DNA of 64,000 nt from Eledone cirrhosa (GCA_964016885.1 OZ024761.1:22568001-22632000); one strand, 5' to 3'; shown: positions 1-43,824, counted from the first letter of the stretch. Numbers and translations are program-made. Notes: generated by a model from the letters alone, not told the origin.

Positions 1-124
1 TTTGTTGGAAGTCCAACAAGCATAAATGTTTATAACTGATTTAGAGCACTCAACAAGTTACTGGAGTAAATATACAATGATATTAAATAAATGGAAACTG
101 TATTTATAAAACCATATTTATTTT

Positions 125-180
125 ATTATATATATTTCAAGGATACCAAGACAACATTGGTACGCTTTCATCAGATAAAA
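125..180 (-). ncRNA. Minimal type I hammerhead ribozyme motif, family A
   Basis: Minus strand reads TTTTAT-CTGATGA-aagcgTACCAA..TTGGTAtcctt-GAAA-TATATA-TA-ATAAAA. Stems I and II pair; stem III is palindromic. Confidence 0.75.
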
Positions 181-451
181 TACAAAGTTTGTTTTATAAA
201 TAGAGATATACCTATGAAAATCATACCTTATCGGTTGGAAATTCACTGGATATATATATATATATATATATATATACGTATATATGTGTCTATATATATA
301 TATATATAAAGTTGTTAAACAATATTCAATGAGTATGTCAAAGAATGAGTTTTACAGTAGATTGGAAACACTCAACAGAAAATAATTTTCAGGAGTTATT
401 AATATTAAAATATAAGTATTAATAAAATAGATGTTCTTTTGATCAATTACA

Positions 452-503
452 TTTTATTATACATATTTCGGATGTACAACAGTACGTCCTCATCAGACAA
501 AAT
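452..503 (-). ncRNA. Minimal hammerhead motif, family B; inverted copy at 568-612
   Basis: Minus strand reads ATTTTGT-CTGATGA-GGACGTAC-tgtt-GTACATCC-GAAA-TATGTA-TA-ATAAAAT. Confidence 0.75.
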
Positions 504-700
504 ATAATGATACATGACATACCCTGAGATGTTAAATGGTTAAGATTTAATCAATCTACCTTGATTGATGATGAGGACGTACTGTTGTACATCCGAAATA
601 TGTATAATAAAATGTAATTGATCAAAAGAACATCTATTTTATTAATACTTATATTTTAATATATATATATATATATATATCATCATCATCATCAGGTTTA

Positions 701-736
<36 letters not shown>

Positions 737-1224
737 ATATATATATGTATACATATATACACACACAACCTTGAAATTTTTTATTTGTTGTTATCTCATT
801 ACCTGTTATTCATTAACAACAACAACACCAACATCTGCCATCTTGTCTTACAAATATCATCAGTTCCTTAGTTACCATATTCCTATTGTCCCCACCTCTA
901 GTTACCATACCCCCCCCCCACATTGTTACCATATTCGTACAGCACCCCACCCCCCACCCCTAATTACCATATTCCAACAGTCCCCCCCATCCACTATAGA
1001 AATGTTGTTATTCCAACAACTAAGACTGACAGATTACATTGACATGTTTTACAATATATTCCATTTTTCTTATTCTCTCATTCTGTTGTTCTGTTCTGTT
1101 ATTCTCATTCTCTTGTTCTATTGTTCCAGTTGTTTGCAAGAAACTTCTTGTTTGTTTCCTGTTGTTTTTGTATGTTTTTCTCAGCAACAAAACTGTAATA
1201 TGTTGTTTTTTATATGTGTATATA

Positions 1225-1264
<40 letters not shown>

Positions 1265-1294
1265 CACATCTATACATATATACACATATATGTA

Positions 1295-1375
<81 letters not shown>

Positions 1376-3761
1376 ATGCAAGCATGTGTATATATGTGTG
1401 TGAATGTTTGTATGTTTGATTATATGTGTGTGTGTACATATATACACTCACACACACATATATTTATATTTCTTTCTTGTACCCTTCCAGGTATATTTAA
1501 CCCTTTGTACCTTATCTTCTATCCATATAGGGTCCCCAGTTTATTTATTAACCCTTTCTTTATAATCAACACTGTTGTTATTGTTGTTGTTGTTGTTTCT
1601 ACATACAAACAGTTATATTTATTAACTTCTTTTAATTGTCAATAATGTAATAAGTGATTAGCTAACCTACTCATTAATTAATCCATTAATGACATTTCTC
1701 CACAGTTGTTAATATAATCTATATGTACCCAATTTAGTATGGGTTCACACACTGTACCCGAGTGTGTGAACTATTAGGGGACTAAAAGTGCTGGTGACAA
1801 GGGAGGGCATACAGCTGTAAAACGTTGCCTCATAAAGTCCTCCCATGATGTGTATAAAGCTACAAAGTGTTGTAGTTTGCTTGAAGCATTGTGGAATAAG
1901 AAATACAAATGTAAATAAGTTTAAATATTTGGAAGCCCTACAATGCGCGCAAGATTAAAAGTGTCAAGGTAATAGGAGTTATCAAGAATAAAAGGTAAAA
2001 TTCTACTGTCCTCACTCTTTTCTCAGTCTTTTATTCTCTATAACTCCTATTACCTTGGCACTTTTAATCTTGAACGCATTGTCAGGCTTCCATAATATTT
2101 AAATTTATTTAAATTTATATTTCTTCAAATATATATTTTATTTCTTATATTCCGAGAAGCAGGTGTAGAGTTTAGAATAAGTGCACCATGCCCTCGTGTG
2201 TTGTAAGAAGGGACTAAAAGTGTTAGTGGCAGGAAGTATATACAATTGTAAGACATTTCCATCATAAAGGACCCCATGATGAATGTGAATCTGTTACAGC
2301 GACCCCAAGACTAAACTTTGCTGTTGCAGGGAATTTGGTTCTAAAAATATTTGTTGTTGCATGAAGCAGGTACACTTATGTTGTCTGTGAGTCATAAAAG
2401 GAGTCTAAAAGGATTGGTGCCAGGAACGGTATCCAGCTGTAAGAAAACAAATATCTAAAAAAGTATCCCAAGATGTGTAGGAAGCCTAGCATGAGTTCTG
2501 CAAGGTTAACCCTCTTCATCGGCAGAGAAAGTGGCCTTTAACCTCTTCTGTACCGTAGACAAGATAACCCTAACATGTAAGCATTCCAGTGCAATGAACA
2601 AGATAACTCGTCCTAACATGTTTGAACTCGTTTCCAATAGTTCATAACTTCAAAGCTAGATGGGGTTACTAGTTTATTGATGTGATGTTTGTCAGTCATT
2701 CAGGTATGTGTTTTTAATAATTGTTTGTTTAAAAAAATAGTAATTTTACTGGAAAAAAAAAACCCAGTACAGCAACTGTAGCTGTGTAAAGTATACACAG
2801 CAGTCAACAGGTTAAACAGTTGTTATTGTGGGCTGTTGTGGGTATGTTATGTGCATGAATATATATGGTCATGCGATGTGCGTCCATGTATATATTTGAG
2901 CCTGTGTTTGTATATAGTGTAGCATGTATCTGTGTGTGTGTGTGTGTGTGTATATATGGTGACTGTATAGCATGTGTATGTTGATTTGTTTGAATATGTG
3001 GACACAGCTATCAACCAAGGAGTATTGTTTATGTGTGAGTCTAATATATATATAATAAAATACTACATGTTTAGAGTCACTCCATCATTAAATGTTTGTT
3101 TCTATTTATATACTTATAAATCGACAATTCAACATAAATAATTGTGTGTGCATGTATGTATATTAAATACACAGCCACATATATTAGTATATGTGAGTGT
3201 ATATATACATACAAACAGATACACATACATACTTACATGTATTTATATATAAAACAATCAGTTTTCTGTTGGATTTCAAGGTTTTCTTGTGTACATAGGT
3301 TACAGGGCCTTACGTCTCCAGACTTGTTATGGGGCATGTATCATATACTTAACACTGTTGTCTCTCTCCTTAATATCTCAAATAGAATAACCTAACCTTA
3401 ATATATACATTTTATATTATTATTAATAATAATGATATTAATAATAATAATAATATTTTTGTCTGTTTTTGGCTGATTGCTTGCTGCCTTAGTCATATAA
3501 ACCTTTTGTTCTACCCTCATCCAATACTATATATATATATATATATATATATGTATACTTATGTATGTATATATATATATGATTTGCATGTATGCATACA
3601 TATATTTATATATGTATATTTATATGATTTGCATGTATGCATACATATATTTATATATGTATATAAGATTTGCAAGTATGCATACATATATTTATATATG
3701 TATATGTATTATATGCATGTATGTATACATATATTTATATATGTATATATGTATGTCTGTG

Positions 3762-3842
<81 letters not shown>

Positions 3843-4099
3843 ATATATATATATACACACACATGTATGTATATGCTACTTTACCATTCTACCTATTATA
3901 TGTACTAACCCTATTGTGACTGCTGTTGGTATTTTATTGTCATAATCTTCTTTTACTGGTGCTAAAGAATTCTTGTGATTATTTCTTTCTTATTTTTTTG
4001 TTCCTCCCCCCTCTCCCACTTCCACCACCACGGTATGTCACTGGCTGCCATTGGTCTAAAACACCAGGAACCCATCTTGGTTCTATGATACTAACTTGT

Positions 4100-4625
4100 T
4101 TGTTATAAATATAATTTTATGTAAGAACCTTTGTTAAGTTACCTTCCAAATACCATATTAACTATGGGAGAGTTATTTAATTTAAGTCTCTCTCCATGGC
4201 AATGTTATTTTATTGTTATAAATATAATTTTATCTAAGAACCTTTGTCAAGTTACCTTCCAAATACCATATTAACTATGGGAGAGTTATTTAATTTAAGT
4301 CTCTCTCCATGGCAATGTTATTTTATTGTTATAAATATATTTGTATATAAGAACCTTTGTCAAGTTACCTTCCAAATACCATCTTAACTATAGGAGAGTT
4401 ATTTAATTTAAGTCTCTCTCCATGGCAATGTTATTTTATTGTTATAAATATAATTTTATGTAAGAACCTTTGTTAAGTTACCTTCCAAATACCATATTAA
4501 CTATGGGAGAGTTATTTAATTTAAGTCTCTCTCCATGGCAATGTTATTTTATTGTTATAAATTTAATTTTATGTAAGAACCTTTGTTAAGTTACCTTCCA
4601 AATACCATCTTAACTATGGGAAAGT
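4100..4625. repeat. 113-bp tandem repeat, ~4.6 copies
   Basis: Unit starts at 4103, 4216, 4329, 4442 and 4555. Confidence 0.92.
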
Positions 4626-5884
4626 TAAGATAGGTGAGACTCATTGAAATTTTTAGAATAAAATTAGTTTCTGTTGAGAAACGCCACTAAATATCTTACC
4701 TTAGATTTGACCTCTCAATCTCTGAACTCCTTGTATCATACTTCTACACTCACTTTCACTGCCTCAACTGTAACAACACATGTGACACGAGACATACTAA
4801 CTGCACACTCTACCCCCCATGTGTACACAACCACAGCAGCTGTGTGTCTGCATCTATCTGCATCTAAATACATTTCTTTTCATACCAATGACTGCAGCCA
4901 ACTCTGCTGATGTAAAACTATTTTCTCCTCCAAAGTGACAACCACAATCACCTCCCTGCGTGGACTCAGTCACACAGTTTCCATCCCACAAGAAGGTTAA
5001 AAGGCAACAAACCCTTCACAGGATTCAGTTTAACCCTTTACCATTTACATTACTCTATATATACTATTGTATTTTCACAGTAAAGGCTTTACCTCACATA
5101 ATATCTCACATAACATTTACATTACTCTATATATACTATTGTATTTTCACAGTAAAGGCTTTACCTCACATAATATCTCACATAACATTTACATTACTCT
5201 ATATATACTATTATATTTTCACAGTAAAGGCTTTACCTTACATAATATCTCACATAACATTTACATTACTCTATATATACTATTGTATTTTCACAGTAAA
5301 GGCTTTACCTCACATAATATCTCACATAACATTTACATTACTCTATATATACTATTGTATTGTCACAGTAAAGGCTTTACCTTACATAATATCTCACATA
5401 ACATTTACATTACTCTATATATACTATTATATTTTCACAGTAAAGGCTTTACCTCACATAATATCTCACATAATATCAAATCTATGAGATTTTGATGTTA
5501 TTTGTTTATCATAGAAATAGCAGCCAAATTTGATTCAAATTACTTTGCCATATTGAAAAATAATGACAACATTGAGTAATTTAGTCCCAGATAGACTGTG
5601 GTTGATGAAAAAGGGGGAAGTTGTATGGTAGTGCCTTTCATAAGAAATATGGTAACAAGGGTTAAATTAACTGAGAAATAATTGAGATCTGATTTAGGTC
5701 TTTGGCAGCTGTGTACATACCGTCCCCTTTTCCTCTGTATACCCATTACCCACAATGCCACAGCAATTGTTACAACTTCCTCATTTATTTCCCTTTATGA
5801 TTTGAAAAAGCACAATACACACATACATAGACATACACACACATACACACACATACACATACATACTCATACATACTCATATAT

Positions 5885-5918
<34 letters not shown>

Positions 5919-5962
5919 GCCTGGAGAGGGATAGGCTCTGCCAGGCTGAAGGAGTTAAGGAC

Positions 5963-6016
<54 letters not shown>

Positions 6017-6035
6017 GCATATATGCATGTGTGTG

Positions 6036-6071
<36 letters not shown>

Positions 6072-6135
6072 TATACACATACATAAATATATATTTATAT
6101 CTATCTATATATACACACACACATACACATATATA

Positions 6136-6181
<46 letters not shown>

Positions 6182-6381
6182 TACACATACACATATATAC
6201 ATCGTTCAGTTATACTTGTTCAGTGCCCTACCAACCTACTGTTGTTACCTTGCTGTGTTTAATCCATCCTTATTCCGTTTATTGATCCCAATTTTCTTTC
6301 TTTTCTTCTTTGCCTACCTCTGCCTCATCCTCCCCACCCCCCTGTCCATCTTATATATATATATATATGTGGGTATATATG

Positions 6382-6414
<33 letters not shown>

Positions 6415-6457
6415 ATATATATATGTGTCTGTATATATATATATGTGTATATATATA

Positions 6458-6498
<41 letters not shown>

Positions 6499-6633
6499 TA
6501 TATGCATAATTGCGTATATGTACATATATACACATATACATATATATATATTTATATATATATGATGATGATGATGATGATGATGATATATATGTATATA
6601 TATATATATATATATATAAATATATACACACAC

Positions 6634-6718
<85 letters not shown>

Positions 6719-6854
6719 ATGTTTAATATATAAATGGCTTCTACAGGACTAGAACTGTTTCATTTGAAGGAAATCATCAGGAAAGCCGACTGTTATTGGC
6801 TGAGGTATTTTAAGAATAATAAATACCACTGTATCACATATCACAATAACAGTT

Positions 6855-6905
6855 GGCTTACCTGATGATTTCCTTCGAATGAAACAGTTCTAGTCCTGTA
6901 GAAGA
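6855..6905 (+). ncRNA. Minimal hammerhead motif, family C; inverted copy at 6737-6786
   Basis: CTGATGA(6862)-tTTC-cttc-GAAt-GAAAC-agttcta-GTC(6895). Further copies at ~34165-34255 and degenerate ones at 40100-40150 and 40645-40695. Confidence 0.65.
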
Positions 6906-6987
6906 CATTTCTATATTAGATATAATATACTCTGATATGTATTGAGTACCTTACTGTGGTTACCTCCATATATATATATGTATATAT

Positions 6988-7019
<32 letters not shown>

Positions 7020-7118
7020 GTATATGTATATGTATATATATATATATATGTATATGTATATATATATGTATATATATATATGTATATATATATATGTATA
7101 TATATATGTATATATGTT

Positions 7119-7164
<46 letters not shown>

Positions 7165-7238
7165 TATATACATACATATATATGTATATATATATATACA
7201 TACATATATATGTATATATATATATATATACATACATA

Positions 7239-7272
<34 letters not shown>

Positions 7273-7559
7273 CATACATATATATACATTTATATATATA
7301 TATATATATATACATTTATATATATATATATATATATATACATTTATATATATATATATATATATATACATATATACATTTATATATATATATATACATA
7401 TATACATATATATATATACATATATACATATATATATATACATATATATATATAAACCCCCAACCACCTCCATACCTTTGTCGTCAACTTTACCTACCTG
7501 TAAGCCTATCCCATGTTACACACTGCTTTTTTTCCGCTTCGCCTCGTTATATTTTGCAG

Positions 7560-7592
7560 ATTGCACGTTTTTTTCGTTTGAAGACTCAAGGA
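7560..7592 (+). CDS. Candidate 33-nt numb microexon ([11 protein letters not shown])
   Basis: Pyrimidine tract plus tttgcAG, then 33 nt open in phase 0, then GTAAGT donor. Unique sequence between microsatellites. Confidence 0.45.
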
Positions 7593-7602
7593 GTAAGTAC
7601 TC

Positions 7603-7647
<45 letters not shown>

Positions 7648-9458
7648 TGTAACTGCCTGCTTTCCTAGCTGAGCACCTAACAAGTCTGGTACCCTCCCGG
7701 GGTGCAAGGGAGGGAAAGAGACATTGACCAGTCTGTGTGGGCTGGCTGGCTGGGGGAGGGTGTCTAATGTGGGCTAAAGAGTTTTGAAGAATGTGTGTGA
7801 GTGTGTGTGTGTGTGTGTGTGTGAGTGTGTGCTCTAGTGTATGTATGTCTGTGCATGTGTGTTCACATGTGTGTAATATTTGATGTGTGTGAAGCCCCGC
7901 GGTCAAGATTAGACCATTCTACCATGGAAAAGGTTTAAGCTTGACCGTAGGGCTTAGACATTTGAAATGAAACCTACACTCCACTTTCTTTAAAGTGTGG
8001 TGGGTGGGGGTGCTAAGTTAAATAAAGGTCTGACTGGTTTAGTTTTTCTTTAGTAAGATATTATCCACACAAACACACACACACATACATAAACACACAT
8101 TCACATACTCACACACACATAAACACACACACATTCACATTCACATTCACACACACACACATAAACACACACACACATTCACATTCACACACACACACAT
8201 ACTCAAACAGAAGCACACATACTCACACATTCACACACATACACATTCACACACATACATACTCACACACATACTCTCTCACACACACACAAACACAGTT
8301 TCAAACACACACACACACTTACACACACTCAGACACACTCACTGTTGTCTTTCCAGTTGTCACTTTATTTACGCTGTGAGTTCCAATCCTGCTGAGGTCA
8401 ACTTTACCCTTTAACCTCCCAGTGTTGTTAAAATAAAGTACCAGTTATACACTTGGGGGTCGATATAGGCTTTGGCCATGTTCACAAATTGCTGGCCTTG
8501 TGCCTAAAGTGGAGATTAGATTATTATTATTATTATTGGGAGGTGGTGAATCTATGAGATTTTGATATTATTTATTTTGAGAACAATACCTTAACATCAG
8601 TATGAGCAGCCAGTGGATTGGCAGTATCGGTAGAGAGTCGGACACCGCGCGTTGCAGCACAGTTACGGCCCTTTACGGGCTGAGTTCAATTCCCACCGAG
8701 GTTAACTTTGCCTTTCATCTTTACTGGGTCGATAAAGTAAAGTACCAGTAATTCACTGGGGTAATTGCTGGCCTTGTGCCAAAAGTAGAAACAATTATTA
8801 TTTTTATATATTGACAGTGTTGGTGGAGTGTCAGACACCATGCTTAACGGCATCGAGTTATGGCCCTTTGCGTTCTGAAATTAAACCTTGCCGAAGTTAC
8901 CTTTGTCTTTTATTCTTACAGGGTTGATAAAATAAAGTACCAGTAATGCACTGGGGTAATTGCTGGCCTTGTGCCAAAAGTAGAAACATTTATTACAGGG
9001 TTGATAAAATAAAGTACCAGTAATACACTGGGGTAATTGCTGGCCTTGTGCAAAAAGTAGAAACAATTATTACAGGGTTGATAAAATAAAGTACCAGTAA
9101 TACACTGGGGTAATTGCTGGCCTTGTGCAAAAAGTAGAAACAATTATTACAGGGTTGATAAAATAAAGTACCAGTAATACACTGGGGTATTTGCTGGCCT
9201 TGTGCCAAAAGTAGAAACAATTATTATTATTATTGGTGGGTGGCAGTGGTAGGGTTGAGTGGAGTGGAAAGATGGACATGTTCTAATTATCAGTCTTAAC
9301 GAATATATATCTTAACAAGCTTTTAGTGTTTAGCATGTTTCATAATCTATTTTGTAAACTCGTTAACACAAGTGTTTAAATGACAAAATAGTAATTAACA
9401 GATTTTGGCTTTTGTTGTTGTTTGAAATTACTTTAACATGAACTTCTATATACATAAA

Positions 9459-9495
<37 letters not shown>

Positions 9496-9548
9496 GTATA
9501 TATATATATATATATGTATATATATGTATATATATATGTATATGTATA

Positions 9549-9593
<45 letters not shown>

Positions 9594-9660
9594 GTATATG
9601 TACATATATATGTATATGTATATGTACATATATATGTATATATATATGTATATGTACATA

Positions 9661-9733
<73 letters not shown>

Positions 9734-10152
9734 TCAAATCGTAATGGACCAAAATCGCTAAGGTGAAAAAAACACTAACTACAGAAAATAGGGTTTGCTG
9801 GACTCAATTTAAGAACAAATTAAGAAAAATAAATACAAACCAGTATTGTGGTAACTACCATCACCCAGACGCTCTTTGATATAACCGTTTCGCAATATTA
9901 TTTGCGAAGAGGAATACCAATTCCAGGCTCATCAGTGGGTGCTGAAATTAGTATACTCCTCACTTCTACTTCTAAATCAAATAGAAAACTGGAAAGTGCG
10001 TGTATATATAGCGCACATGGTTCTCGAACTTAGCGTGTCGCGTAGACTTACGCCACTAAAAATAGCAGCCGGGTCTACACGACATTTGAAATAGCTCTAC
10101 GAATTAACGGAGCCGAATCTATCATAAGCTTGTATTGAGTTTCTAACTCAAT

Positions 10153-11757
10153 ACAAGCTGTAATATATATATATATGTGGTCAAGCGGTAATATATATAT
10201 ATATATGGTCAAGCTGTAATATATATATATATGTGGTCAAGCTGTAATATATATATATATATGTGGTCAAGCTGTAATATATATATATATGTGGTCAAGC
10301 TGTAATATATATATATATATGGTCAAGCTGTAATATATATATATATGTGGTCAAGCTGTAATATATATATATATATGTGGTCAAGCTGTAATATATATAT
10401 ATATGTGGTCAAGCTGTAATATATATATATATATGGTCAAGCTGTAATATATATATATATGTGGTCAAGCTGTAATATATATATATATATGTGGTCAAGC
10501 TGTAATATATATATATATGTGGTCAAGCTGTAATATATATATATGGTCAAGCTGTAATATATATATATATGTGGTCAAGCTGTAATATATATATATATAT
10601 GGTCAAGCTGTAATATATATATATATATATGTGGTCAAGCTGTAATATATATATATATGTGGTCAAGCTGTAATATATATATATATGTGGTCAAGCTGTA
10701 ATATATATATATATGTGGTCAAGCGGTAATATATATATATATATGGTCAAGCTGTAATATATATATATATGTGGTCAAGCTGTAATATATATATATATAT
10801 GGTCAAGCTGTAATATATATATATATATGGTCAAGCTGTAATATATATATATATGTGGTCAAGCTGTAATATATATATATATATGGTCAAGCTGTAATAT
10901 ATATATATATGTGGTCAAGCTGTAATATATATATATATATGGTCAAGCTGTAATATATATATATATATGGTCAAGCTGTAATATATATATATATGTGGTC
11001 AAGCTGTAATATATATATATATATGGTCAAGCTGTAATATATATATATATGTGGTCAAGCTGTAATATATATATATATATGGTCAAGCTGTAATATATAT
11101 ATATATATGGTCAAGCTGTAATATATATATATATATGGTCAAGCTGTAATATATATATATATGTGGTCAAGCTGTAATATATATATATATGTGGTCAAGC
11201 TGTAATATATATATATATATGGTCAAGCTGTAATATATATATATGGTCAAGCTGTAATATATATATATATGTGGTCAAGCTGTAATATATATATATATAT
11301 GGTCAAGCTGTAATATATATATATATGTGGTCAAGCTGTAATATATATATATATATGGTCAAGCTGTAATATATATATATATATGGTCAAGCTGTAATAT
11401 ATATATATATGTGGTCAAGCTGTAATATATATATATATATGGTCAAGCTGTAATATATATATATATGTGGTCAAGCTGTAATATATATATATATGTGGTC
11501 AAGCTGTAATATATATATATGTGGTCAAGCTGTAATATATATATATATGTGGTCAAGCTGTAATATATATATATATGTGGTCAAGCTGTAATATATATAT
11601 ATATGTGGTCAAGCTGTAATATATATATATATGTGGTCAAGCTGTAATATATATATATATGTGGTCAAGCTGTAATATATATATATATGTGGTCAAGCTG
11701 TAATATATATATGTGGTCAAGCTGTAATATATATATATATATGGTCAAGCTGTAATA
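10153..11757. repeat. Compound minisatellite GGTCAAGCTGTAA(TA)n, >50 units
   Basis: A fixed 13-mer alternates with a variable (TA)n run. Confidence 0.95.
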
Positions 11758-12443
11758 GTGTACATCTGCCTGTCTTGGTGCTAACATACCTGTCATACCT
11801 GAGGTAACGAGAAAACAAATGAAAAGACCTAGGTTTTGAACTCAGATAGAAACCTGTTACATGTTTGTTGTGATTTGAGGGTCATTTAACCCCTTAATAT
11901 TTACATTACTCTATATATACTAGTGTATTCTTTTAGTAAAGGCTTTATCTTACACAGTTATCTCGCATGATATCAAATCTATGAGATTTTGATATTATTT
12001 ATTTTGAGAACAATATCTTAACATCAGTATGAGTGGCCAGTTACAGCTGGTTTGAACAGAAAGAGGTGAGAGAGTTTTCTGGCCGGATATAGCCGGTTTA
12101 AATACTAAAGGGTTAAGCTGTTCTTTCTAGCTGCTGGGTCTGTCCCATTGGTCAAGTCCTACAGGCTCCAGCTGGTCGTGGCCCATGACTAATGTGTCAG
12201 TAACAAACACCATATATCTGTGTATGTGTTTGTGTGAGTTCATTGGCCTGCGCGTCTGTACATATGTGTGTGTTTCTGGCCATGTATGTGTGTGTGTGTG
12301 TATATACATATGTATACATATATATACATATATATATGTATATATACATATACATATATATACATATATATACATATATATATATACATATTATATACAT
12401 ATATATATATATAATGTATGTTTACATGGTCCGTTCAGAGTGA

Positions 12444-12487
<44 letters not shown>

Positions 12488-13806
12488 ACACACACATCTA
12501 AGTGAGTGTATAGTGTATTGAAATACCCTGCAGCTATATTCCTTATTGATCTCTGACAAATCAATGTTCTCTCATCATATGACTGCTTTGAAAAATGTAT
12601 ATAACAAACACACATGCATATACACATGCATATACATATATACATACATATATATATATACATATACACATGCATATACATATATACACATGCTTATACA
12701 TATATACATACACATATATATGTACATATACACATGCATATACACATATACATACACATATACATACATATATATATATACATATACACATGCATATACA
12801 TATATACACATGCTTATACATATATACATACACATATATATGTACATATACACATGCATATACACATATACATACACATATACATACATATATATATATA
12901 CATATACACATGCATATACATATATACACATGCTTATACATATATACATACACATATATATGTACATATACACATGCATATACACATATACATACACATA
13001 TACATACATATATATATATACATATACACATGCATATACATATATTCACATGCATATACATATATACATACACATATATATATATATATACATATACACA
13101 TGCATATATATATATACATACACATATATATACATATGCACATACATATATATACATATACACATGCATATACACATATATATGTATATATACATGCATA
13201 TACGTATATACATACACATATATATATATATACACATGCATATACATATATACATACACATATACATATATATATACATATACATATATACATACACATA
13301 CACATATATATACATATACATATGCATATACATATATACATACACATACACATATATATATACATATACACATGCACATACATATATACATACATATATA
13401 TATATATATACACATGCATATACATATATACATATACACAATCATAAGACCTGCAGCTAGACACTGACTCACACATACACACAGCCTACATCAAAGTCAC
13501 ATACACACACACACATAAACATATATATATATATATACATACATATATACCCCCCCCCCCCCCATTTTAACCACTTCCAAAAATTCAAGATAAATAAAAA
13601 AAAAAATACTGTTAAAAAGAACAAGAAATGTCCCCCTCCCTATCTCCCCTCTTCCCCCTCCCTATCTTCCCTCCTGCCCCTCCTCACTCTCCCCTCCCTT
13701 CCCTCTCCTCTTCCTCCTACCCCCTCTTCCTCCCCTCTCTTCCTTCTACCCCCCTCCCATCTAAGCTACAAGAATACCAAACATTGTTGTCCTTTCTCCC
13801 ATCTAG

Positions 13807-13839
13807 CGCCACGGCAAGAACGATGGCTGCCTTGTAAAG
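13807..13839 (+). CDS. Candidate 33-nt numb microexon (RHGKNDGCLVK)
   Basis: Long pyrimidine tract plus ctAG, then 33 nt open in phase 0, then AAG|GTATGA donor. Confidence 0.4.
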
Positions 13840-14407
13840 GTATGATGAGTCACTTCTTCTGTAGTCTACCTGTGTACCTTACCTGATTCACAATAGCTTT
13901 AGTTTTAGTCTCTACTACTACTACCACTACCACCACCACCACCACCACCACCACCACCACTACCACTGCTGTTGTTAGGCCGAGAGTTTGGTAGAGTCAT
14001 TGGAGCGTTAGATTAACTTTTAGCATCCTGTACTGCATGAAACCACATTAGCGAGGGAGGGTGCGGGGTTTAAAGTACGAAACAACACTACAACTGCATC
14101 CCGTTAAAAGTTAAAGTCTTTTCTCTAATACTGCAAATTTTCATAGCAATTTGTCCACTAGTAACGATTCTAAGAACATTTAACTTAACAAACTGCATAA
14201 AACCACTTTAGCAAGGCATTCTTGAAAACTACAAAACACCACTATGACTGCATCACATAATTAAAGTCTTGACTATAATACTGCAACTTTTCACAAGTAT
14301 CTGTCCATTAGTAAGGAAACTGTAAACATTTGAATTGTCAAACCACGTAAAACCACATTAGTAAGGCATACTTGAAAACTAAAAAACAGCATTCTGACTG
14401 CATTACA

Positions 14408-15365
14408 TTAACCCTTTAACATTCACATTACTCTATATATACTATTGTATTTTCACAGTAAAGGCTTTACCTCACATAATATCTCACATAACATTTACAT
14501 TGCTCTATATATACTATTGTATTTTCACAGTAAAGGCTTTACCTCACATAATATCTCACATAGTATCTCACATAACATTTACATTGCTTTATATATACTA
14601 TTGTATTTTCACAGTAAAGGCTTTACCTCACATAATATCTCACATAACATTTACATTGCTCTATATATACTATTGTATTTTCACAGTAAAGGCTTTACCT
14701 TACATAATATCTCACATAACATTTACATTGCTCTATATATACTATTGTATTTTCACAGTAAAGGCTTTACCTCACATAATATCTCACATAACATTTACAT
14801 TGCTCTATATATACTATTGTATTTTCACAGTAAAGGCTTTACCTCACATAATATCTCACATAGTATCTCACATAACATTTACATTGCTCTATATATACTA
14901 TTGTATTTTCACAGTAAAGGCTTTACCTCACATAATATCTCACATAACATTTACATTGCTCTATATATACTATTGTATTTTCACAGTAAAGGCTTTACCT
15001 CACATAATATCTCACATAACATTTACATTGCTCTATATATACTATTGTATTTTCACAGTAAAGGCTTTACCTCACATAATATCTCACATAACATTTACAT
15101 TACTCTATATATACTATTGTATCTTCACAGTAAAGGCTTTACCTCACATAATATTTCACATAACATTTACATTACTCTATATATACTATTGTATTTTCAC
15201 AGTAAAGGCTTTACCTCACATAATATCAAATCTGCGAGATTTTGATGTTATTTATTTTGAGAACAATACCTTAACATTGGTATGAGTGGCTGATTATGGC
15301 TGGTTTGAACAAAATGTGGTGAAAGAATTCTGGTCGGATACAGCCAGTTATATGCTAAAGGGTTA
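14408..15365 (+). mobile_element. TTAA-flanked piggyBac-like MITE with ~11 internal 72-bp tandem units
   Basis: TTAACCCTTTA...TAAAGGGTTA termini. Same family at 11886-12116 (1 unit), 23974-24325 (3 units) and 5029-5500 (6 units, 3'-truncated). Confidence 0.78.
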
Positions 15366-15986
15366 CATTTAAAGTCTTTACTTTAGTCTAATACTGTACT
15401 GCAAATTGTCACAACTATCTGTCCACTACTAAAGATACTAAATACATTTAAATTAACAAACCTGTTTTTAGATATTTTCTGCTAAATCCTTACAGAATGT
15501 TAAAACTGAAACACTTTGGTATGTGTTCCAGTTTAATGCACTCTGAGTTCAAATCTCGCTCAGGGGTCAATTTTCCTATTCATCCTTTTGGGGTTGATAA
15601 AAAATAGTACCTGAGGACTGATTGGTGGAGGGATCTGGCTCTGTGGATTTTGAGTTCAAATCCTGCCAACTTCTGCCATATCAACAATGGAAACCTTGTC
15701 GCCTTTGTCTCATCTGACAATCAGCTCCTTTCCTTTTTGCTATTACCACAACTACCAGCACTACCTCTACCACCACTAGTACTGCTACTACCACTCACAC
15801 CACCACTACTACTACTGCTACTACTACTACTACTACCACCACTACCACCACCACCACCACTGCTACTACCACTATTACTACTACTCACACTACCACCATC
15901 ACTGTTGTGTTGCTAGTTGCAAGTCCTTGTGTCTCACTCTGTATGTTTTTCACATTCACAAGCACAACACTTAGCATGATAGCTTG

Positions 15987-17040
15987 TACAGTGTTATATA
16001 TACATGTGTGTGTATAAGGACTGTGGTGTACAGTGTTATATATACATGTGTGTGTATAAGGACTGTGGTGTACAGTGTTATATATACATGTGTGTGTGTA
16101 TAAGGACTGTGGTGTACAGTGTTATATATACATGTGTGTGTATAAGGACTGTGGTGTACAGTGTTATATATACATGTGTGTATATATAAGGACTGTGGTG
16201 TACAGTGTTATATATACATGTGTGTGTGTATAAGGACTGTGGTGTACAGTGTTATATATACATGTGTGTGTATATAAGGACTGTGGTGTACAGTGTTATA
16301 TATACATGTGTGTGTATATAAGGACTGTGGTGTACAGTGTTATATATACATGTGTGTGTATAAGGACTGTGGTGTACAGTGTTATATATACATGTGTGTG
16401 TATATAAGGACTGTGGTGTACAGTGTTATATATACATGTGTGTATATAAGAACTGTGGTGTGCAGTGTTATATATATGTGTGTGTATATATAAGGACTGG
16501 TGTACAGTGTTATATATACATGTGTGTATAAGGACTGTGGTGTACAGTGTTATATATACATGTATATATAAGGACTGTTGTGTACAGTGTTATATATACA
16601 TGTGTGTATAAGGACTGTGGTGTACAGTGTTATATATACATGTATATATAAGGACTGTGGTGTACAGTGTTATATATACATGTATATATAAGGACTGTGG
16701 TGTACAGTGTTATATATACATGTGTATATAAGGACTGTGGTGTACAGTGTTATATATACATGTGTATATAAGGACTGTGGTGTACAGTGTTATATATACA
16801 TGTCTGTGTACATATACATGTGTGTCTGTACTTATATATGTGTGTGTCTCTACATATACATGTGTGTCTGTACTTATACATGTGTGTGTCTCTACATATA
16901 CATGTGTGTCTGTACTTATACATGTGTGTGTCTCTACATATACATGTGTGTCTGTACTTATACATGTGTGTGTCTCTACATATACATGTGTGTGTCTCTA
17001 CATATACATGTGTGTGTCTCTACATATACATGTGTGTGTT
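15987..17040. repeat. ~40-44-bp minisatellite grading into a shorter related unit
   Basis: AAGGACTGTGGTGTACAGTGTTATATATACATG(TG/TA)n repeats. Confidence 0.9.
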
Positions 17041-17294
17041 GATGCTATATTACTGTTTAATAATGTATACGTTACAATTCAGCTATGAATAATGTTTTTC
17101 AATCATTGCTGAGGGTGAAAAATAACAGAGAGACACACAGACATAGAGACAGACAGACAGTCACACAGACAGACAGACACATACATAGAGACAGACAGAC
17201 AGGCAGACAGACATATATACAGACAGACACATACATAGAGACAGACACACAGACAGACAGACATATATAGACAGACACACAGACAGACAGACAC

Positions 17295-17325
<31 letters not shown>

Positions 17326-17851
17326 TATATAGACAGACATATATAGACAGACATACAGACAGACAGACACACACATAGAGACAGACACACAGACATACAG
17401 ACAGACAGACACATAGAGACAGACAGACACACACACAGAGACAGACAGACACACACACACATAGAGACACACATAGAGACAGACACACACATAGAGACAC
17501 ACATATAGAGACAGACACAAGTTATTTCACTGGTTTCAGTGGCCATGCTGGGGCACCACATTGATTTAGTTGATCAATCTCTTTTTTTTTTCTATTGAAG
17601 TTACAAGACAGAAATATACTTATGACAGTGATGATGATGATGATGATGTTGACAGTGATGATGATGATGATGATGTTGACAGTGATGTTGACAGTGATGA
17701 TGATGATGATGTTGTTGACAGTGATGTTGACAGTGATGATGATGATGTTAGCGAGGAGTTTGTTATCCTCCTCCTCCTCATTATTGATGTCTGTATTTAT
17801 GCAGTTCTGATTGCGTCTATGTTTGCATGCCAGTATGTATATATGCATATT

Positions 17852-17894
<43 letters not shown>

Positions 17895-18544
17895 CTAAGT
17901 GTGTGTCTGTGTGTGTATGTAAGTGTGTGTATTTGACTGTGTGTGTATGTAAGTGTGTGTATTTGTCTGTGTGTATTTGACTGTGTCTGTGTATGTAAGT
18001 GTGTGTCTGTGTATGTAAGTGTGTGTCTGTGTATGTAAGTGTGTGTGTCTGTGTGTAAGTAAGTGTGTGTATTTGACTCTTTGTGTATGTAAGTGTGTGT
18101 CTGTGTGTATTTGACTGTGTGTATGTAAGTGTGTGTGTCTGTGTGTGTATGTAAGAGTGTGTATTTGACTGTGTGTGTATGTAAGAGTGTGTATTTGACT
18201 GTGTGTATGTAAGAGTGTGTATTTGACTGTGTGTGTATGTAAGTGTGTGTATTTGTCTGTGTGTATGTAAGTGTGTGTATTTGTATGTGTGTGTATGTAA
18301 GAGTGTGTATTTGACTGTGTGTGTATGTAAGAGTGTGTATTTGACTGTGTGTGTATGTAAGAGTGTGTATTTGACTGTGTGTGTATGTAAGAGTGTGTAT
18401 TTGACTGTGTGTCTGTATAAACAAGAAATGGTTCAAGTGAATCAATTTTAACTAAGGATGGTCAGATTTTGGTGACAGGAGGAAGAATCAGCCAGGTGGT
18501 CAGGTGGGTAGAATATCTCTTGACTTGAGCCAGGAGAGGTATTT

Positions 18545-19302
18545 GGTAGAGCACCTGCAGGTGACAGGTGAGGGCCTGGTTTGGTAGAGCACCTGCAGGT
18601 GACAGGTGAGGGCCTGGTTTGGTAGAGCACCTGCAGGTGACAGGTGAGGGCCTGGTTTGGTAGAGCACCTGCAGGTGACAGGTGAGGGCCTGGTTTGGTA
18701 GAGCACCTGCAGGTGACAGGTGAGGGCCTGGTTTGGTAGAGCACCTGCAGGTGAGAGGTGAGGGCCTAGTTTGGTAGAGCACCTGCAGGTGAGAGGTGAG
18801 GGCCTAGTTTGGTAGAGCACCTGCAGGTGAGAGGCGAGGGCCTGGTTTGGTAGAGCACCTGCAGGTGAGAGGCGAGGGCCTGGTTTGGTAGAGCACCTGC
18901 AGGTGACAGATGAGGGCCTAGTTTGGTAGAGCACCTGCAGGTGAGAGGTGAGGGCCTGGTTTAGTAGAGCACCTGCAGGTGACAGGTGAGGGCCTGGTTT
19001 GGTAGAGCACCTGCAGGTGAGAGGTGAGGGCCTGGTTTGGTAGAACACCTGCAGGTGAGAGGTGAGGGCCTGGTTTGGTAGAGCACCTGCAGGTGAGAGG
19101 TGAGGGCCTGGTTTGGTAGAGCACCTGCAGGTGAGAGGTGAGGGCCTGGTTTGGTAGAGCACCTGCAGGTGAGAGGTGAGGGCCTAGTTTGGTAGAGCAC
19201 CTGCAGGTGAGAGGTGAGGGCCTGGTTTGGTAGAGCACCTGCAGGTGACAGGTGAGGGCCTGGTTTGGTAGAGCACCTGAAGGTGAGAGGTGAGGGCCTG
19301 GT
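18545..19302. repeat. 38-bp GC-rich minisatellite, ~20 copies
   Basis: Unit TGGTAGAGCACCTGCAGGTGA(C/G)AGGTGAGGGCCTGGTT. Confidence 0.95.
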
Positions 19303-19520
19303 TGATCTTTTAGGCCAGGAGAGATGAGGTGGAGATACAGAGGTCCAAAATAGTCATTGAGAAGGTCACAATATGTGTGATGAAAGAACTTTGACAATTA
19401 ATAACTGGCCAGTTACATAACCAACCAATAAATGGAATAGTTACGTAATTAGTAATAAAACTGTGAAACTAAACTAGTTGTGTGTGGCAGAACGACTCTC
19501 CCCAAGTAATACCTGTTTTA

Positions 19521-19551
<31 letters not shown>

Positions 19552-19771
19552 CATAGGTATAAGAAAAGAAAGACTCAAGAGCTTTTCATGTTAGTTGCTG
19601 TTCTTATTATTATTATTCTAATTTCTATTGTGTGTTGTTGCAGCTTTACCAAGCACAGCTCTGTGTGAGTTGTTATTATTATTATTTTTGTTATTATTAC
19701 TTTTACTATTATTACCTCAATTAATGAATGGTTTCAGCTTCCACAAAATAATTAGCTTTATTTTTGTTATT

Positions 19772-19806
<35 letters not shown>

Positions 19807-20010
19807 ATGAACATGTATCTGTCTAGCAACTATCTTCCTTTTTCTACTTTCCAAAGAAGGACAACTATCCAAAACCTCAAGAGTCTGTTTTTAACTTCTT
19901 ATAAGCATTACACTAATATTACACTAATATTACATTGTTCACTGTTGTACTTTGGTACTTTAAAAATTGTTTTATTTTTCCATGTTTTCTACTTACCATT
20001 TATATACACG

Positions 20011-20069
<59 letters not shown>

Positions 20070-20143
20070 TCAGGTATAAGCCACCACTTTATTTTATCCT
20101 AACCCCATTTAAAGGCCAATGTTGCTTATCAACACATTTAGAG

Positions 20144-20519
20144 CAGCGGTCGCCAACCTTTTCGACCTCATGGACCACTAAATTCATAATTCTAAATCCC
20201 ACTGACCACTAATATGAATTCTTTTTAAAAGATAAATACATTTGTAAAATACTGATCAGAGAACTTCCATTTTATTAAACAATACTGAAGTGTACGTGTG
20301 TCATATTGTCGATAGGTGATACATATGTGTTAACATTATTTCATGGATGTTAGTTCTTTACTGAGGAGAAACATTTTTTAGGGGGATGGGTTATAAAATA
20401 TATTTTAACCGAATGTTATTTTTGTTTATTAAAAATAAAACATAAGAATTGCAAATAATGTCCAAATTTTTCACTGGACCACCAAAATTTTCTCTTGGAC
20501 CACCAATTGGCGACCTCTG
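20144..20519. mobile_element. hAT (Charlie-like) MITE
   Basis: Termini CAGCGGTCGCCAA / TTGGCGACCTCTG, with imperfect 8-bp TSD atttagag / gtttagat. A related 5' end lies at ~48278. Confidence 0.75.
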
Positions 20520-20771
20520 GTTTAGATGGCTTATATAAACATATAAACCTGTGACCCCATTTTACCAACGTTTTTTTCTTCTCTCTTTTCAGGTCTCATA
20601 TATTCCTCAGCTTATATTTAAGTATATACGGTGTGTGTGTGTATATATATATATTAGGATTGGTGCTCTGAAATAGCGATGTATACATGAATGTATGTAT
20701 AGTATATTTGGCAATATACCGTATGTTTAATTAAAAACACTTAGACGACCATACACTATCAATTTTAGGGG

Positions 20772-20830
20772 AGTGCGTGGCTCTGATGAACGCCAACCAG
20801 CGTGAAACAGACTGTCAGCTTCTCTCCCTT
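20772..20830 (+). ncRNA. Minimal hammerhead ribozyme, family D, intact core
   Basis: GGCT-CTGATGA(20783)-ACGC-caacca-GCGT-GAA-ACAG-a-CTGT-C(20816)-AGCT. All three helices and a GUC cleavage triplet are present. Confidence 0.82.
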
Positions 20831-21059
20831 CTTTCACCGAAAAGAAGTACATGACATAGTCACTACTTTAAAACTGACAGCGAATGGTCTTCTAAGTGTT
20901 TTTAATTAAACATACGGTATATTCCCAAATTCTTTCTTGTGATGAAGGACTAGTGTCCGAAACGTTAAGACCCTCTTCCTGCTATTTCAAGCGTTAACCT
21001 AATATATCCCTTCCTTATACTGTACCGATTGTGTTGTTATTTCTGTTTACCTTTTACAT

Positions 21060-21092
<33 letters not shown>

Positions 21093-21299
21093 AAAATATA
21101 TATATAGGAACGAGTAGGACCCCGACGGCTAATTCTGGACTAAAAAAAAAAAATTCTTTTTTTAGTCCAGAATTAGCCGTCGAAACGGCTTGAGCTCAGC
21201 CGTCGAGGTCCTACTTTTCCTATTACCCACTCTACTACCCTAAGAATTGAGTACTTTGGTGCGTTATGGTCCACCTGGTTCCTTACCACTTTTCCTTCG

Positions 21300-21338
<39 letters not shown>

Positions 21339-21584
21339 AAAACGTCCTACACGAGTGAAAGTATAAGGAAAAAAGATGAAATCGAAAATGCAACTGGAGT
21401 CTTTTTAAGAATATTTATTTGTTTCCTTTACCGGTTTCACTGTTCTTATGCTTTTCAAGAGTATAATTGAGATGGAGGGTTTGTGGTTTTTCTCTGAAAA
21501 CTTAAAAACTGTGAAACCGGTAAAGGAAACAAATAAATATTCTTAAAAAGACTCCAGTTGCATTTTCGATTTCATCTTTTTTCC

Positions 21585-21620
<36 letters not shown>

Positions 21621-21632
21621 ATATATATATAC

Positions 21633-21664
<32 letters not shown>

Positions 21665-21671
21665 GTATGTG

Positions 21672-21702
<31 letters not shown>

Positions 21703-21784
21703 ATGTGTGTATATATATGTGTGTGTGTGTGTCTCTCCATTGTGTGACTGTTTTCATTGTGTCTGAGATCGTTTCTGTTTGCAG

Positions 21785-21974
21785 GGTGAACGTCTGAGCC
21801 ACGCGGTTGGCTGTGCATTTGCTATTTGTTTAGAGCGTAAACAGAAGCGAGACAAAGAATCTGGTGTGAACGTTACCTACAATCAAGACCGTACTATCTT
21901 CACACGCACCGGTTCCTTCCGACAAGCTTCCATCACTGAAAGAATCGCAGACCCTCAGAGTGCTATTCTAGCAG
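21785..21974 (+). CDS. numb: Numb exon: C-terminal helix of the PTB domain and following linker
   Basis: tttgcAG acceptor at 21783-84 and G|GTAACA donor at 21975. Phase 0 in, phase 1 out. Encodes [28 protein letters not shown]...[15 protein letters not shown], the Numb-family PTB end. Confidence 0.96.
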
Positions 21975-22299
21975 GTAACACTCTAAACGGTATCTATATT
22001 TCCTTTCCTACATTTTTTCCATCGTTTTACTAACATGTTTTGTCTTGCTTTCTCTACCATTAACATTTTCACTAACATATATTGAGTACTGCAGTCAACA
22101 AGAGGCTTAAAGCCATTATCTTCCTTGCAAAGCCCCATGAAAGGCTTTATGTTCATTGTGGGGTCCTTTTTTTTAAAGCAATTGGCCAAGTGTTTAGAGT
22201 GTTGGACTCAATATCGTAAGGTGTGTTCAATTTCTAAACCAGGCAACATTTTGTGTCCTTGAGCAAGACACTACATTTCACATTGGTTTTCATGATAGA

Positions 22300-26278: not shown

Positions 26279-26500
26279 AGCCCATTCCAGTGAAGAAAGT
26301 AGAGAACCCTTATGCAGTCCAGAGACCTCATGCCACACACTCATTGCTGCAAAGACAAGGATCTTTCAGGGGATTCGAGAAACTACATGAAACCTCTTCT
26401 CCTTTCAAACGGTCGGTCTCTCTAAGATTGAACGAACTCCCATCAACCTTAAGACGACAGAACGCAGTTCTCGAATCTCCACCTCATGGAGGTGGGAAGT
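26279..26500 (+). CDS. numb: Numb exon: NumbF domain
   Basis: cacAG acceptor and GTAAGT donor at 26501, phase 1-1. Encodes AVQRPHA...LQRQGSFRGF...SPFKRSVSLRLNELPSTLRRQ (NumbF signature). Confidence 0.96.
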
Positions 26501-28079: not shown

Positions 28080-28658
28080 TTCCTTTGTGTGATAGCTATG
28101 GCGAAAGAGGTTGTATGGTGGACGAGGTTGAAAGGGCTGAGGTCAGACACCTTTCTCTCCGACCAACAACTGATTCTCTTTTTTCAAATACCACTTTGGA
28201 AGAAGAATCAGGATGGAAAGAGAGGTGCTGTACCCCAGGATGGAGAGAGAGGTGCTGTACCCCAGGATGGAGAGAGAGGTGCTGTACCCCAGCAAGTTTT
28301 ATGAAAGGTGGGTGAAAGTGGTGAGAATGGCCCGAGTGAATGGGCCGTCTCTCTATATCAGCCTGTAGGTTGAGGAAAAGGAGGAGGAGAGGAAAGGAGT
28401 ACAAACTCTTCGTACTCCTGGAGATGAGGGTTGCACATTTTTTCGGGGGTATGTGTTACCCATATGTAATGTCTCCCCCCTGTTGGGGAAAATCGACTAA
28501 TTTTTTAAATTGCATTTGTGATAATAATTTACACGTTTTTATTGTATGTAAACTTCCCCCTTTGTATTTGTCCCCTTCTTTTGTGCCCCTGTGGCTAATA
28601 AATACACATATCTATCTATCTTTCTATCTATCTATCTATGTTGTCTTGTCTTTTACAG

Positions 28659-28910
28659 TGGGTAGTCCCATACCAGAGCTGTCCCCTTCAGATGAAAACC
28701 CAGACTCTGTCGCCCAGATGTGTCAGCAGCTGTCAATGGGTCTGCGTGCTCTCAACACAGATGATCCCTTTGCCAGTGTCCCCCACAGTACACTCCACTC
28801 CCTCCACTGTCCCTCCTCCGGGGTCATCAACACGGGGGCTTCATTCCAACAGAGTCCTACACATATCTTCAGTAACCATGGCAACCAGTCTGTGAACACT
28901 TCCTCGCAAG
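28659..28910 (+). CDS. numb: Numb exon: Pro/Ser-rich region
   Basis: ttttacAG acceptor and AAG|GTAACG donor at 28911, phase 1-1, open frame. Encodes SPIPELSP...DSVAQMCQQLSMGL...DDPF. Confidence 0.9.
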
Positions 28911-29086
28911 GTAACGTCTTCCTCTCTCTCGTGTGTGTGTGTGTGTGTGTGAGTGTGAGTGTGCATGCATGTGTGTGGGCATGTGTGTGTATGTGTATGT
29001 GAGTGAGCATGCTTATGTGTGTATACCTGTATGTGTGCTGTGTGAACATATGGTCAAAAACACATGCATATATGCATGTACAGTGA

Positions 29087-30395: not shown

Positions 30396-31474
30396 TATAT
30401 ATAGAGAGAGAGAGAGAATAAGGAAATACAAAGTTTAGATGATAAAGTCCTTTATTGCTAAGGCTGTGATACATATTTTGAAGACGACATTGGTTACGCA
30501 ATACAGTGTAGAAGCCAGCGCCATAATAAAGTTACAATGAAGGAGGTAATCCAAAATTGAAGTGACAAGGGAGCAGACAAACAGCGATGTTCGTTAAATG
30601 AATACATGTTGAGTTCTTGAATTAAATTACATCAGTGTTTTTACAATATATATATATATGTGTATATATCATGAATATGTGACCTTAGGTTTTGAGGTCC
30701 AGTTATGGCCACCACTGTCAAGTGGTGAAACTGTTGTAATACTAGACTCTCATCAGGTGCTAGGACAAGATTACAAAAACTCACGGAAAATGGAGTTATT
30801 CCATAGAGAGCTCTTTTTCAAGATCAAGGGAGGCAACTCTCAAGATTTGAATGCTGGGGGTTAGGATCTTTGAAATGTATGTATTTTGTGAGCTAACATT
30901 TTTTTTTTTTTTTTTTTTTTCGTAATTTTAAATAATTGTTTCTACTTTTGGCACAGGCCAGCAATTACCCCAGTGTATTACTGGTACTTTATCTTATCGA
31001 CCCCGTAAGGATGAAAGGCAAAGTCAACCTCGGAGGGATTTGAACTCAGATCGTAAAGGGACATAACTATGCTGGAAAACATGGCGTCCGACCCTCCACC
31101 GATACTGCCAATCCACCGCCCTACCATGGTGTCCGACCCTCTACCGACCCTGCCAATCCACCGCCAATTTAAGTAAATAATACACTCCAAAAACAAAGCT
31201 AACAATAAATCAAACATCTGGTGGATAACACCTTCGGATACCGTCATTAAATAAAGCTAATTAACAAACTAAATGTCTATACTAGATCCAAGACATCCTC
31301 TGGTTCTTCTCCACAGTTTTGTATCTTAACCCCCGGGCTGGTTTCAGGGGTTTCCCCCCCGGGCTAGTTTCAGGGGTTTTGTATTAAAAAGTTTAGCAAT
31401 TTAATTTTCATTGTTGTTGTCGATTTTTGTATTGTTTATGGAGTTGTTTTATTGTTTTTTGTTGTTTGTTTCAG

Positions 31475-43801: not shown

Positions 43802-43824
43802 AGAGGGACTTACATTATTGACAG

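What the first reader, a model, noticed from the sequence alone, without database searches (positions are those of the whole stretch)
7560..13839. Two equal-length 33-nt microexon candidates in the numb PTB intron
Seen: 7560-7592 ([11 protein letters not shown]) and 13807-13839 (RHGKNDGCLVK) each have a pyrimidine tract plus AG, a good donor (GTAAGT, GTATGA) and exactly 11 open codons in phase 0, matching the phase-0 acceptor at 21785. Both sit in islands of unique sequence. Established: vertebrate Numb has a basic 11-aa alternative PTB insert that alters membrane association, but at a more N-terminal position. Inference: independently evolved cassette or mutually exclusive microexons inserting 11 aa just before the last PTB helix, possibly neural-specific.
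Basis: partly seen in the sequence, partly recalled or inferred. Interest (0 to 1): 0.7.

Follow-up and report, generated by a model that had tools for sequence, protein, structure and literature searches.

The report
Optional basic inserts in octopus Numb
Two optional 33-base exons in an octopus numb gene, annotated alone or together in a related octopus, lengthen a loop of the protein's binding domain; one adds a positively charged, aromatic patch, with look-alikes at the same site in cuttlefish and bivalves, that likely tunes membrane or partner binding as an unrelated vertebrate exon does.

Summary
Both 33-nt exons are at the stated coordinates, in the 40,130-nt phase-0 intron before the last PTB helix of an octopod numb gene. 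They are very likely real. Octopus sinensis RefSeq isoforms carry A alone, B alone, both and neither, so they are independent cassettes, not mutually exclusive. Exon A (basic, aromatic) is conserved in Argonauta and cuttlefish, and bivalves have an optional basic-aromatic 9-12 aa insert at the same site. Exon B was found only in O. sinensis. Neither is orthologous to vertebrate exon 3, which lies in another intron. Papers call the PTB-long isoform a chordate invention, so this looks like a convergent molluscan counterpart; I found no paper describing it. Function and neural bias are untested, and no junction read for A or B was seen in this species. An earlier scan note describes a microexon in a different octopus PTB protein (Mint); none covers numb. 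Already in automatic annotation; moderately interesting.

The parts
1..21784 (+). 3' part of the 40,130-nt phase-0 numb intron between the beta4-beta7 exon (ends at G000:C22:22549654, upstream of the window; alternative donor 6 nt further adds VS) and the alpha3 exon. A 15-nt microexon (EKSDL) lies in the upstream part at G000:C22:22558350-22558364.
7520..7559 (+). 3' splice site of exon A: pyrimidine tract and CAG; UGC at -36 (before the tract) and -5; nearest upstream AG at -57
7560..7592 (+). Cassette exon A, 33 nt, [11 protein letters not shown] (net +3, two Phe); donor GTAAGT at 7593-7598
   Evidence: identical in O. sinensis and Argonauta, 10/11 in Sepia pharaonis, 9/11 in an unnamed coleoid-like cluster
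13765..13806 (+). 3' splice site of exon B: pyrimidine tract and TAG; no UGC in the 120 nt upstream
13807..13839 (+). Cassette exon B, 33 nt, RHGKNDGCLVK (net +2, no aromatic residue); donor GTATGA at 13840-13845
   Evidence: 10/11 identical in O. sinensis, 7 of 15 listed isoforms of that cluster
21785..21989 (+). Downstream exon: PTB helix alpha3 and start of the NumbF region; donors at 21974/21975 and 21989/21990, the second used in all 7 spliced contigs
26279..26493 (+). numb exon (NumbF); end approximate
28658..28911 (+). numb exon with DPF motif; end approximate
31474..32238 (+). last coding exon of numb with NPF/DPF motifs and stop codon

Best explanation
The two 33-nt segments match independent optional exons of octopod numb that, with a 15-nt microexon and a 6-nt donor shift in the same intron, combine to add 0-29 residues to the loop before the last PTB helix, and exon A likely works as a switchable basic-aromatic patch that would raise binding to acidic membranes or acidic partners, as vertebrate exon 3 does from a different loop. 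Shown: coordinates, phase, splice signals, isoform combinations in O. sinensis annotation, conservation of A across coleoids, complete skipping in a spliced contig of this species, and a different intron from vertebrate exon 3. Predicted: the PTB core still folds with both inserts, which form a low-confidence loop with a short helix. Inferred: inclusion in this species; common ancestry of A and the bivalve inserts; the membrane or partner role; B as a younger, octopodid modifier of loop length and charge.
For: O. sinensis/vulgaris cluster, 15 of 18 members listed: A 9, B 7, A+B 5, A only 4, B only 2, neither 4; 13 distinct forms of the site. Cluster with Sepia pharaonis: A in 5 of 13 spanning sequences (15 of 21 listed); unnamed coleoid-like cluster: 4 of 5; Argonauta: A. 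Conservation exceeds neutral expectation: at 0.3-0.55 substitutions per site, P(A 11/11) <= 0.0009 and P(B >= 10/11) 0.008-0.0001. Scallops, oysters, mussels, Mercenaria and Tegillarca have 9-12 aa inserts of net +4 to +6 with aromatic residues at the same junction, with insert-free isoforms listed for the first four groups. Contig of this species (X19) joins the upstream exon +6 nt straight to 21785; 4 of 7 spliced runs join through EKSDL. AlphaFold model of the A+B isoform: strand 158-165, helix 190-216, inserts between; best Foldseek hits are Numb/NUMBL PTB domains, rmsd 1.7-2.4 A for the top 10. Vertebrate exon 3 is a basic, hydrophobic 11-aa loop that confers plasma-membrane localisation, PI4P preference and LNX1/MDM2 binding (PMC11889595 sections 5, 6).
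Against: No functional data exist for these inserts. They sit at the start of alpha3, which with beta5 forms the peptide groove (PMC6778778), so they could act on cargo binding instead of lipids; I could not measure distances in the model. pLDDT over the inserts is about 50. Inclusion rests on automatic annotation and assembled contigs of other species. B occurs in only 7 of the 410 proteins fetched, all O. sinensis. No gastropod isoform listed has a strongly basic insert, so A and the bivalve inserts may be separate gains; 9-12 residues cannot prove homology. The divergence figure comes from runs of unnamed related species, not from O. sinensis DNA, and assumes that the differences are synonymous.
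Confidence: 0.6

Rival explanations
1. The inserts act on the canonical peptide groove: lengthening the beta7-alpha3 loop shifts helix alpha3 or covers the groove, tuning or blocking NPxY/F cargo binding, with charge being secondary.
For: The site is directly N-terminal to alpha3, which forms the groove with beta5. Inserts of very different chemistry occur here: VS, EKSDL, STEAM, MNETCM, glycine-rich ones, which fits a length effect.
Against: Basic-aromatic make-up recurs in coleoids, several bivalve lineages and a nematomorph. The model keeps alpha3 and the core at pLDDT 73-92.
Confidence: 0.25
2. A is functional, but B is a low-level, weakly constrained octopodid exon with little effect.
For: B was seen only in O. 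sinensis models, 0 of 18 spanning sequences of the two other coleoid clusters, and has no aromatic residue or UGC.
Against: 10 of 11 residues are kept between two species that differ at many synonymous sites (P 0.008-0.0001); B has the best splice score of 1,182 candidates.
Confidence: 0.15
3. A and B are a mutually exclusive pair.
For: Equal length and phase; A-only and B-only isoforms exist.
Against: A+B in 5 of 15 listed isoforms; no homology between them, local alignment matched by 145 of 500 shuffles, no complementary stretch; 6,214 nt apart, so no steric block, and joint inclusion keeps the frame.
Confidence: 0.03
4. The segments are chance splice-like sites, unused in this species.
For: 88 open AG-33nt-GT candidates exist in the intron.
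Against: The same peptides are in transcript-based proteins of other cephalopods; top splice ranks.
Confidence: 0.03

Closest known systems
Chordate NUMB exon 3 (PTB-long / PTBi; human PDB 5NJJ)
   Same: 33 nt, 11 aa, frame-keeping cassette inside the Numb PTB domain; A shares its basic plus Phe make-up.
   Different: Exon 3 follows helix alpha2, at the octopus boundary two exons upstream. A and B lie in the intron matching human Ex5/Ex6, in the beta7-alpha3 loop. Here several optional pieces combine; B is not aromatic; MDM2/LNX1 and lipid binding are untested.
Octopus sinensis RefSeq 'protein numb' isoforms X1-X16
   Same: The same exons, already in automatic annotation: A identical, B 10/11, EKSDL, VS.
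   Different: The window is another octopod (last exon 69% identical); the isoforms carry no description of the inserts.
SRRM3/4 (eMIC)-dependent neural microexons
   Same: The 15-nt EKSDL exon has a branch-point-like CTAAT at -36, a pyrimidine tract, UGC at -14 and no AG for 110 nt, the layout described in 10.1101/2024.09.17.613571 (passages).
   Different: A and B exceed the 3-27 nt definition (abstracts); A has UGC only at -36 and -5, B none; tissue pattern unknown.
Drosophila Numb N-terminal basic-hydrophobic (BH) motif
   Same: Basic and hydrophobic residues used for cortical membrane binding (PMC11889595 section 6).
   Different: It lies outside the PTB domain and is not an alternative exon.

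Membership tests
Chordate NUMB exon 3 (PTB-long) | 33-nt, 11-aa frame-keeping cassette in the PTB domain | tested here: met
Chordate NUMB exon 3 (PTB-long) | Position after helix alpha2, between human Ex2 and Ex4 | tested here: not met
   human insert aligns at the octopus SLKY/QCKG boundary; A and B lie between beta7 and alpha3. Not orthologous.
Chordate NUMB exon 3 (PTB-long) | Basic plus hydrophobic/aromatic make-up | tested here: inconclusive
   A: net +3, two Phe (met); B: net +2, no aromatic (not met)
Chordate NUMB exon 3 (PTB-long) | Confers membrane localisation, PI4P preference, MDM2/LNX1 binding | not testable with these tools
   needs binding and localisation assays
Mutually exclusive exon pair | Equal length and phase | tested here: met
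Mutually exclusive exon pair | Never included together | tested here: not met
   A+B in 5 of 15 listed isoforms
Mutually exclusive exon pair | Homology from tandem duplication, or steric/docking mechanism (features recalled) | tested here: not met
   0/11 aa, 4/33 nt, no complementary stretch; 6,214 nt apart
SRRM3/4 (eMIC) neural microexon | Length 3-27 nt | tested here: not met
   A and B are 33 nt (within a wider, recalled 51-nt definition); EKSDL, 15 nt, meets it
SRRM3/4 (eMIC) neural microexon | UGC between branch point and AG | tested here: inconclusive
   EKSDL yes (-14); A at -36 and -5; B none. The motif is in 74-79% of targets and not strictly needed.
SRRM3/4 (eMIC) neural microexon | Neural-biased, eMIC-dependent inclusion | not testable with these tools
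   runs are contigs without tissue labels

The most novel reading that the evidence does not exclude
Molluscs evolved their own 'PTB-long' Numb: an optional basic-aromatic exon in a different PTB loop, kept since the bivalve-cephalopod split, that gives the same membrane or acidic-partner switch as chordate exon 3, and that coleoids built into a tissue-regulated combinatorial cassette array.
Probability: 0.35. Interest if true: 0.65.

Novelty: new variant of a known kind. Interest (0 to 1): 0.45.

Why it matters
A dedicated study calls the PTB-long isoform a chordate invention (PMC6778778; it sampled one mollusc, Lottia), and a 2025 review places alternatively spliced NUMB in the chordate lineage (PMC11889595 section 3). 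Exon 3 itself stays chordate, but molluscs carry optional inserts of like length and chemistry in another loop of the same domain. If they do the same job, this is a clean case of convergent splice control of Numb targeting, testable by loop swaps in existing mammalian assays, and a candidate control on asymmetric division and endocytosis in cephalopods. The exons are already in automatic annotation, which limits the surprise.

Tried and rejected
Run search: no RNA holder listed on record; 4 of 24 rows hold the whole stretch. Search for short protein fragments holding A+B: 17 candidates, none passed. A separate 6-nt VS microexon: no AG-flanked candidate in the intron, so VS is a donor shift. 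Docking/selector pairing: no complementary hit. Repeat origin: single-copy. Literature: microexon+octopus+numb gave 4 papers, 3 listed, none on this by title; in the one checked 'numb' as a word occurs 0 times; numb+PTB domain+alternative splicing+mollusc 0; numb+alternative splicing+exon+cephalopod 0; numb+isoform+PTB+oyster 0; PMC6778778 main text has no 'mollus', 'octopus' or 'lophotroch'. Most subscription journals are not searched, and the supplementary alignments of PMC6778778 were not read. No complex prediction was run: no specific partner is claimed. No relatives' genomes were available, so intronic conservation of the splice sites is untested.

Full report
Observation. Both segments are as described: 33 nt, open in phase 0, AG before, GTAAGT or GTATGA after. 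The exon at 21785 matches the C-terminal helix of solved Numb PTB domains. The window is G000:C22:22568001-22632000. In 200 kb fetched upstream lie the other PTB exons; the exon before the candidates ends on a complete codon 18,346 nt before the window, giving a 40,130-nt phase-0 intron. With a rough splice matrix from recalled frequencies, B and A are the best 2 of 88 open 33-nt candidates and rank 1 and 3 of 1,182 candidates of 6-51 nt. Both islands are single-copy as far as the search sees.

What they are. A search with the downstream exon listed the best 120 of 3,629 proteins; the best full match is O. sinensis numb isoform X5, 100% identical over 63 aa. Of the 120, 98 span the junction: 67 have no insert, 11 have VS, 20 have a longer insert. 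In the Octopus cluster (15 of 18 members listed: 14 O. sinensis, 1 O. vulgaris) A is in 9, B in 7, both in 5, neither in 4. That RefSeq models rest on spliced reads is my recollection of the pipeline, not a call result. The same isoforms show a five-residue piece (EKSDL) and VS. EKSDL maps to one 15-nt exon with CAG and GTAAGC at G000:C22:22558350-22558364, rank 4 of 1,182. VS comes from a second donor 6 nt into the intron. The order is VS, EKSDL, A, B, giving 0-29 extra residues and 13 distinct forms among the 15 listed.

Transcripts. Only assembled contigs could be laid. Run X19 matches this species and is spliced: it joins the upstream exon plus 6 nt directly to 21785, so full skipping occurs here. 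Four runs of related species join through EKSDL and one through VS. Inclusion of A or B in this species was not observed and is inferred from conservation.

Conservation. A is identical in O. sinensis and Argonauta, 10/11 in the cluster holding Sepia pharaonis (5 of 13 spanning) and 9/11 in an unnamed coleoid-like cluster (4 of 5). B is 10/11 in O. sinensis and was seen in no other of the 410 proteins fetched. Related runs differ from the window at 17-20 of about 206 coding bases; 13-19 differences over 49 synonymous sites give roughly 0.33-0.54 substitutions per site, at which neutral change would keep A intact with P <= 0.0009 and B at 10/11 with P 0.008-0.0001. Scallops, oysters, mussels, Mercenaria and Tegillarca have 9-12 aa basic-aromatic inserts at this junction. 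Gastropods show only VS or short non-basic inserts; the nemertean Lineus has an optional 10-aa insert; the nematomorph Gordionus has a basic 12-aa insert in 7 of 9 isoforms; VS also occurs in bees and a mayfly. The intron is a recurrent site of exon gain in protostomes. One origin for A and the bivalve exon is plausible but unproven.

Not mutually exclusive. Besides co-inclusion, A and B share 0/11 aa and 4/33 nt, their islands align no better than 145 of 500 shuffles, and no complementary stretch was found; they are 6,214 nt apart.

Structure and mechanism. An AlphaFold model of the A+B isoform (32-sequence alignment) keeps the PTB core at pLDDT 73-92, with the inserts (170-191) between the last strand (158-165) and the last helix (190-216) at pLDDT about 50 and a tentative helix over the start of A. 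Foldseek returns Numb and NUMBL PTB structures first. A is net +3 with two Phe, the bivalve inserts +4 to +6, B +2 without aromatics, EKSDL -1. In vertebrates the 11-aa exon 3 forms a flexible basic loop with hydrophobic residues that drives plasma-membrane localisation, PI4P preference and LNX1/MDM2 binding (PMC11889595, sections 5 and 6 read). I infer that A is a switchable patch of the same kind, with EKSDL, VS and B tuning loop length and charge. The main rival is an effect on the peptide groove, since alpha3 lines it. Neither is tested.

Comparison. The human insert in 5NJJ aligns after helix alpha2, where the octopus gene has a different intron. Human Ex5 and Ex6 encode beta4 to alpha3 (PMC6778778), so A and B sit in the intron matching Ex5/Ex6. 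They resemble exon 3 but are not orthologues. Only EKSDL shows the SRRM3/4-type layout.

Papers seen. PMC11889595: abstract and sections 3, 5, 6. PMC6778778: parts 1-4 of 6, the whole main text without supplements. 10.1101/2024.09.17.613571: passages. 10.64898/2026.09.05.749416: passages. Others: search listings only. Four searches found no paper on these mollusc inserts. An earlier scan note on an octopus Mint PTB microexon concerns another gene and was not tested.

Verdict. Real, conserved, combinatorial cassette exons; already in automatic annotation; not mutually exclusive; function and tissue unknown. The convergence with chordate exon 3 is the point worth following. New variant of a known kind, interest 0.45.

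Noticed in passing
G000:C22:22558350-22558364 (L002; 9,650 nt upstream of the window): Third, 15-nt microexon (EKSDL) in the same intron, with UGC at -14 and a 110-nt AG-free zone; present in 4 of 7 spliced contigs and in cuttlefish-cluster proteins; the best candidate here for a neural eMIC-type microexon.
   Followed up: yes
G000:C22:22549655-22549660 (L003): Alternative donor adding VS; the same two residues appear in gastropods, bivalves, nemerteans, bees and a mayfly.
   Followed up: partly
window 21975-21989: Second donor of the downstream exon, adding 15 nt; all 7 spliced contigs use it; O. sinensis isoforms differ by 5 aa in step with it.
   Followed up: partly
window 7584-7592: An AG inside exon A could give a 9-nt exon (TQG), rank 5 of 1,182; no such isoform among the proteins fetched.
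   Followed up: partly
proteins P0062 (Paralvinella) and P0069 (unnamed): 21-22 aa basic-aromatic insert at the position of vertebrate exon 3. P0062 is a prediction with other odd insertions. If real, an annelid gain at the chordate site.
   Followed up: no
proteins P0230, P0350-P0357 (Gordionus): Optional basic 12-aa insert at the same beta7-alpha3 site in a nematomorph, 7 of 9 isoforms.
   Followed up: partly
window 31474-32238: Last numb exon has long Asn and Gly tracts and is 69% identical to O. sinensis, against 92-97% for the three exons before it.
   Followed up: no
window 37961-38764 (+), 33311-33769 (-), 43321-43821 (+), 61487-61882 (+): Open frames that look like LINE reverse-transcriptase fragments and a DDE transposase fragment (names recalled, not searched).
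   Followed up: no
window 59385-61463: About 2 kb of AT-rich tandem repeat giving long open frames in three frames.
   Followed up: no
about 54.4 kb upstream of the window (L007): Upstream coding exon matching the long N-terminus of O. sinensis isoforms; short and long N-termini both occur in cephalopod proteins.
   Followed up: no
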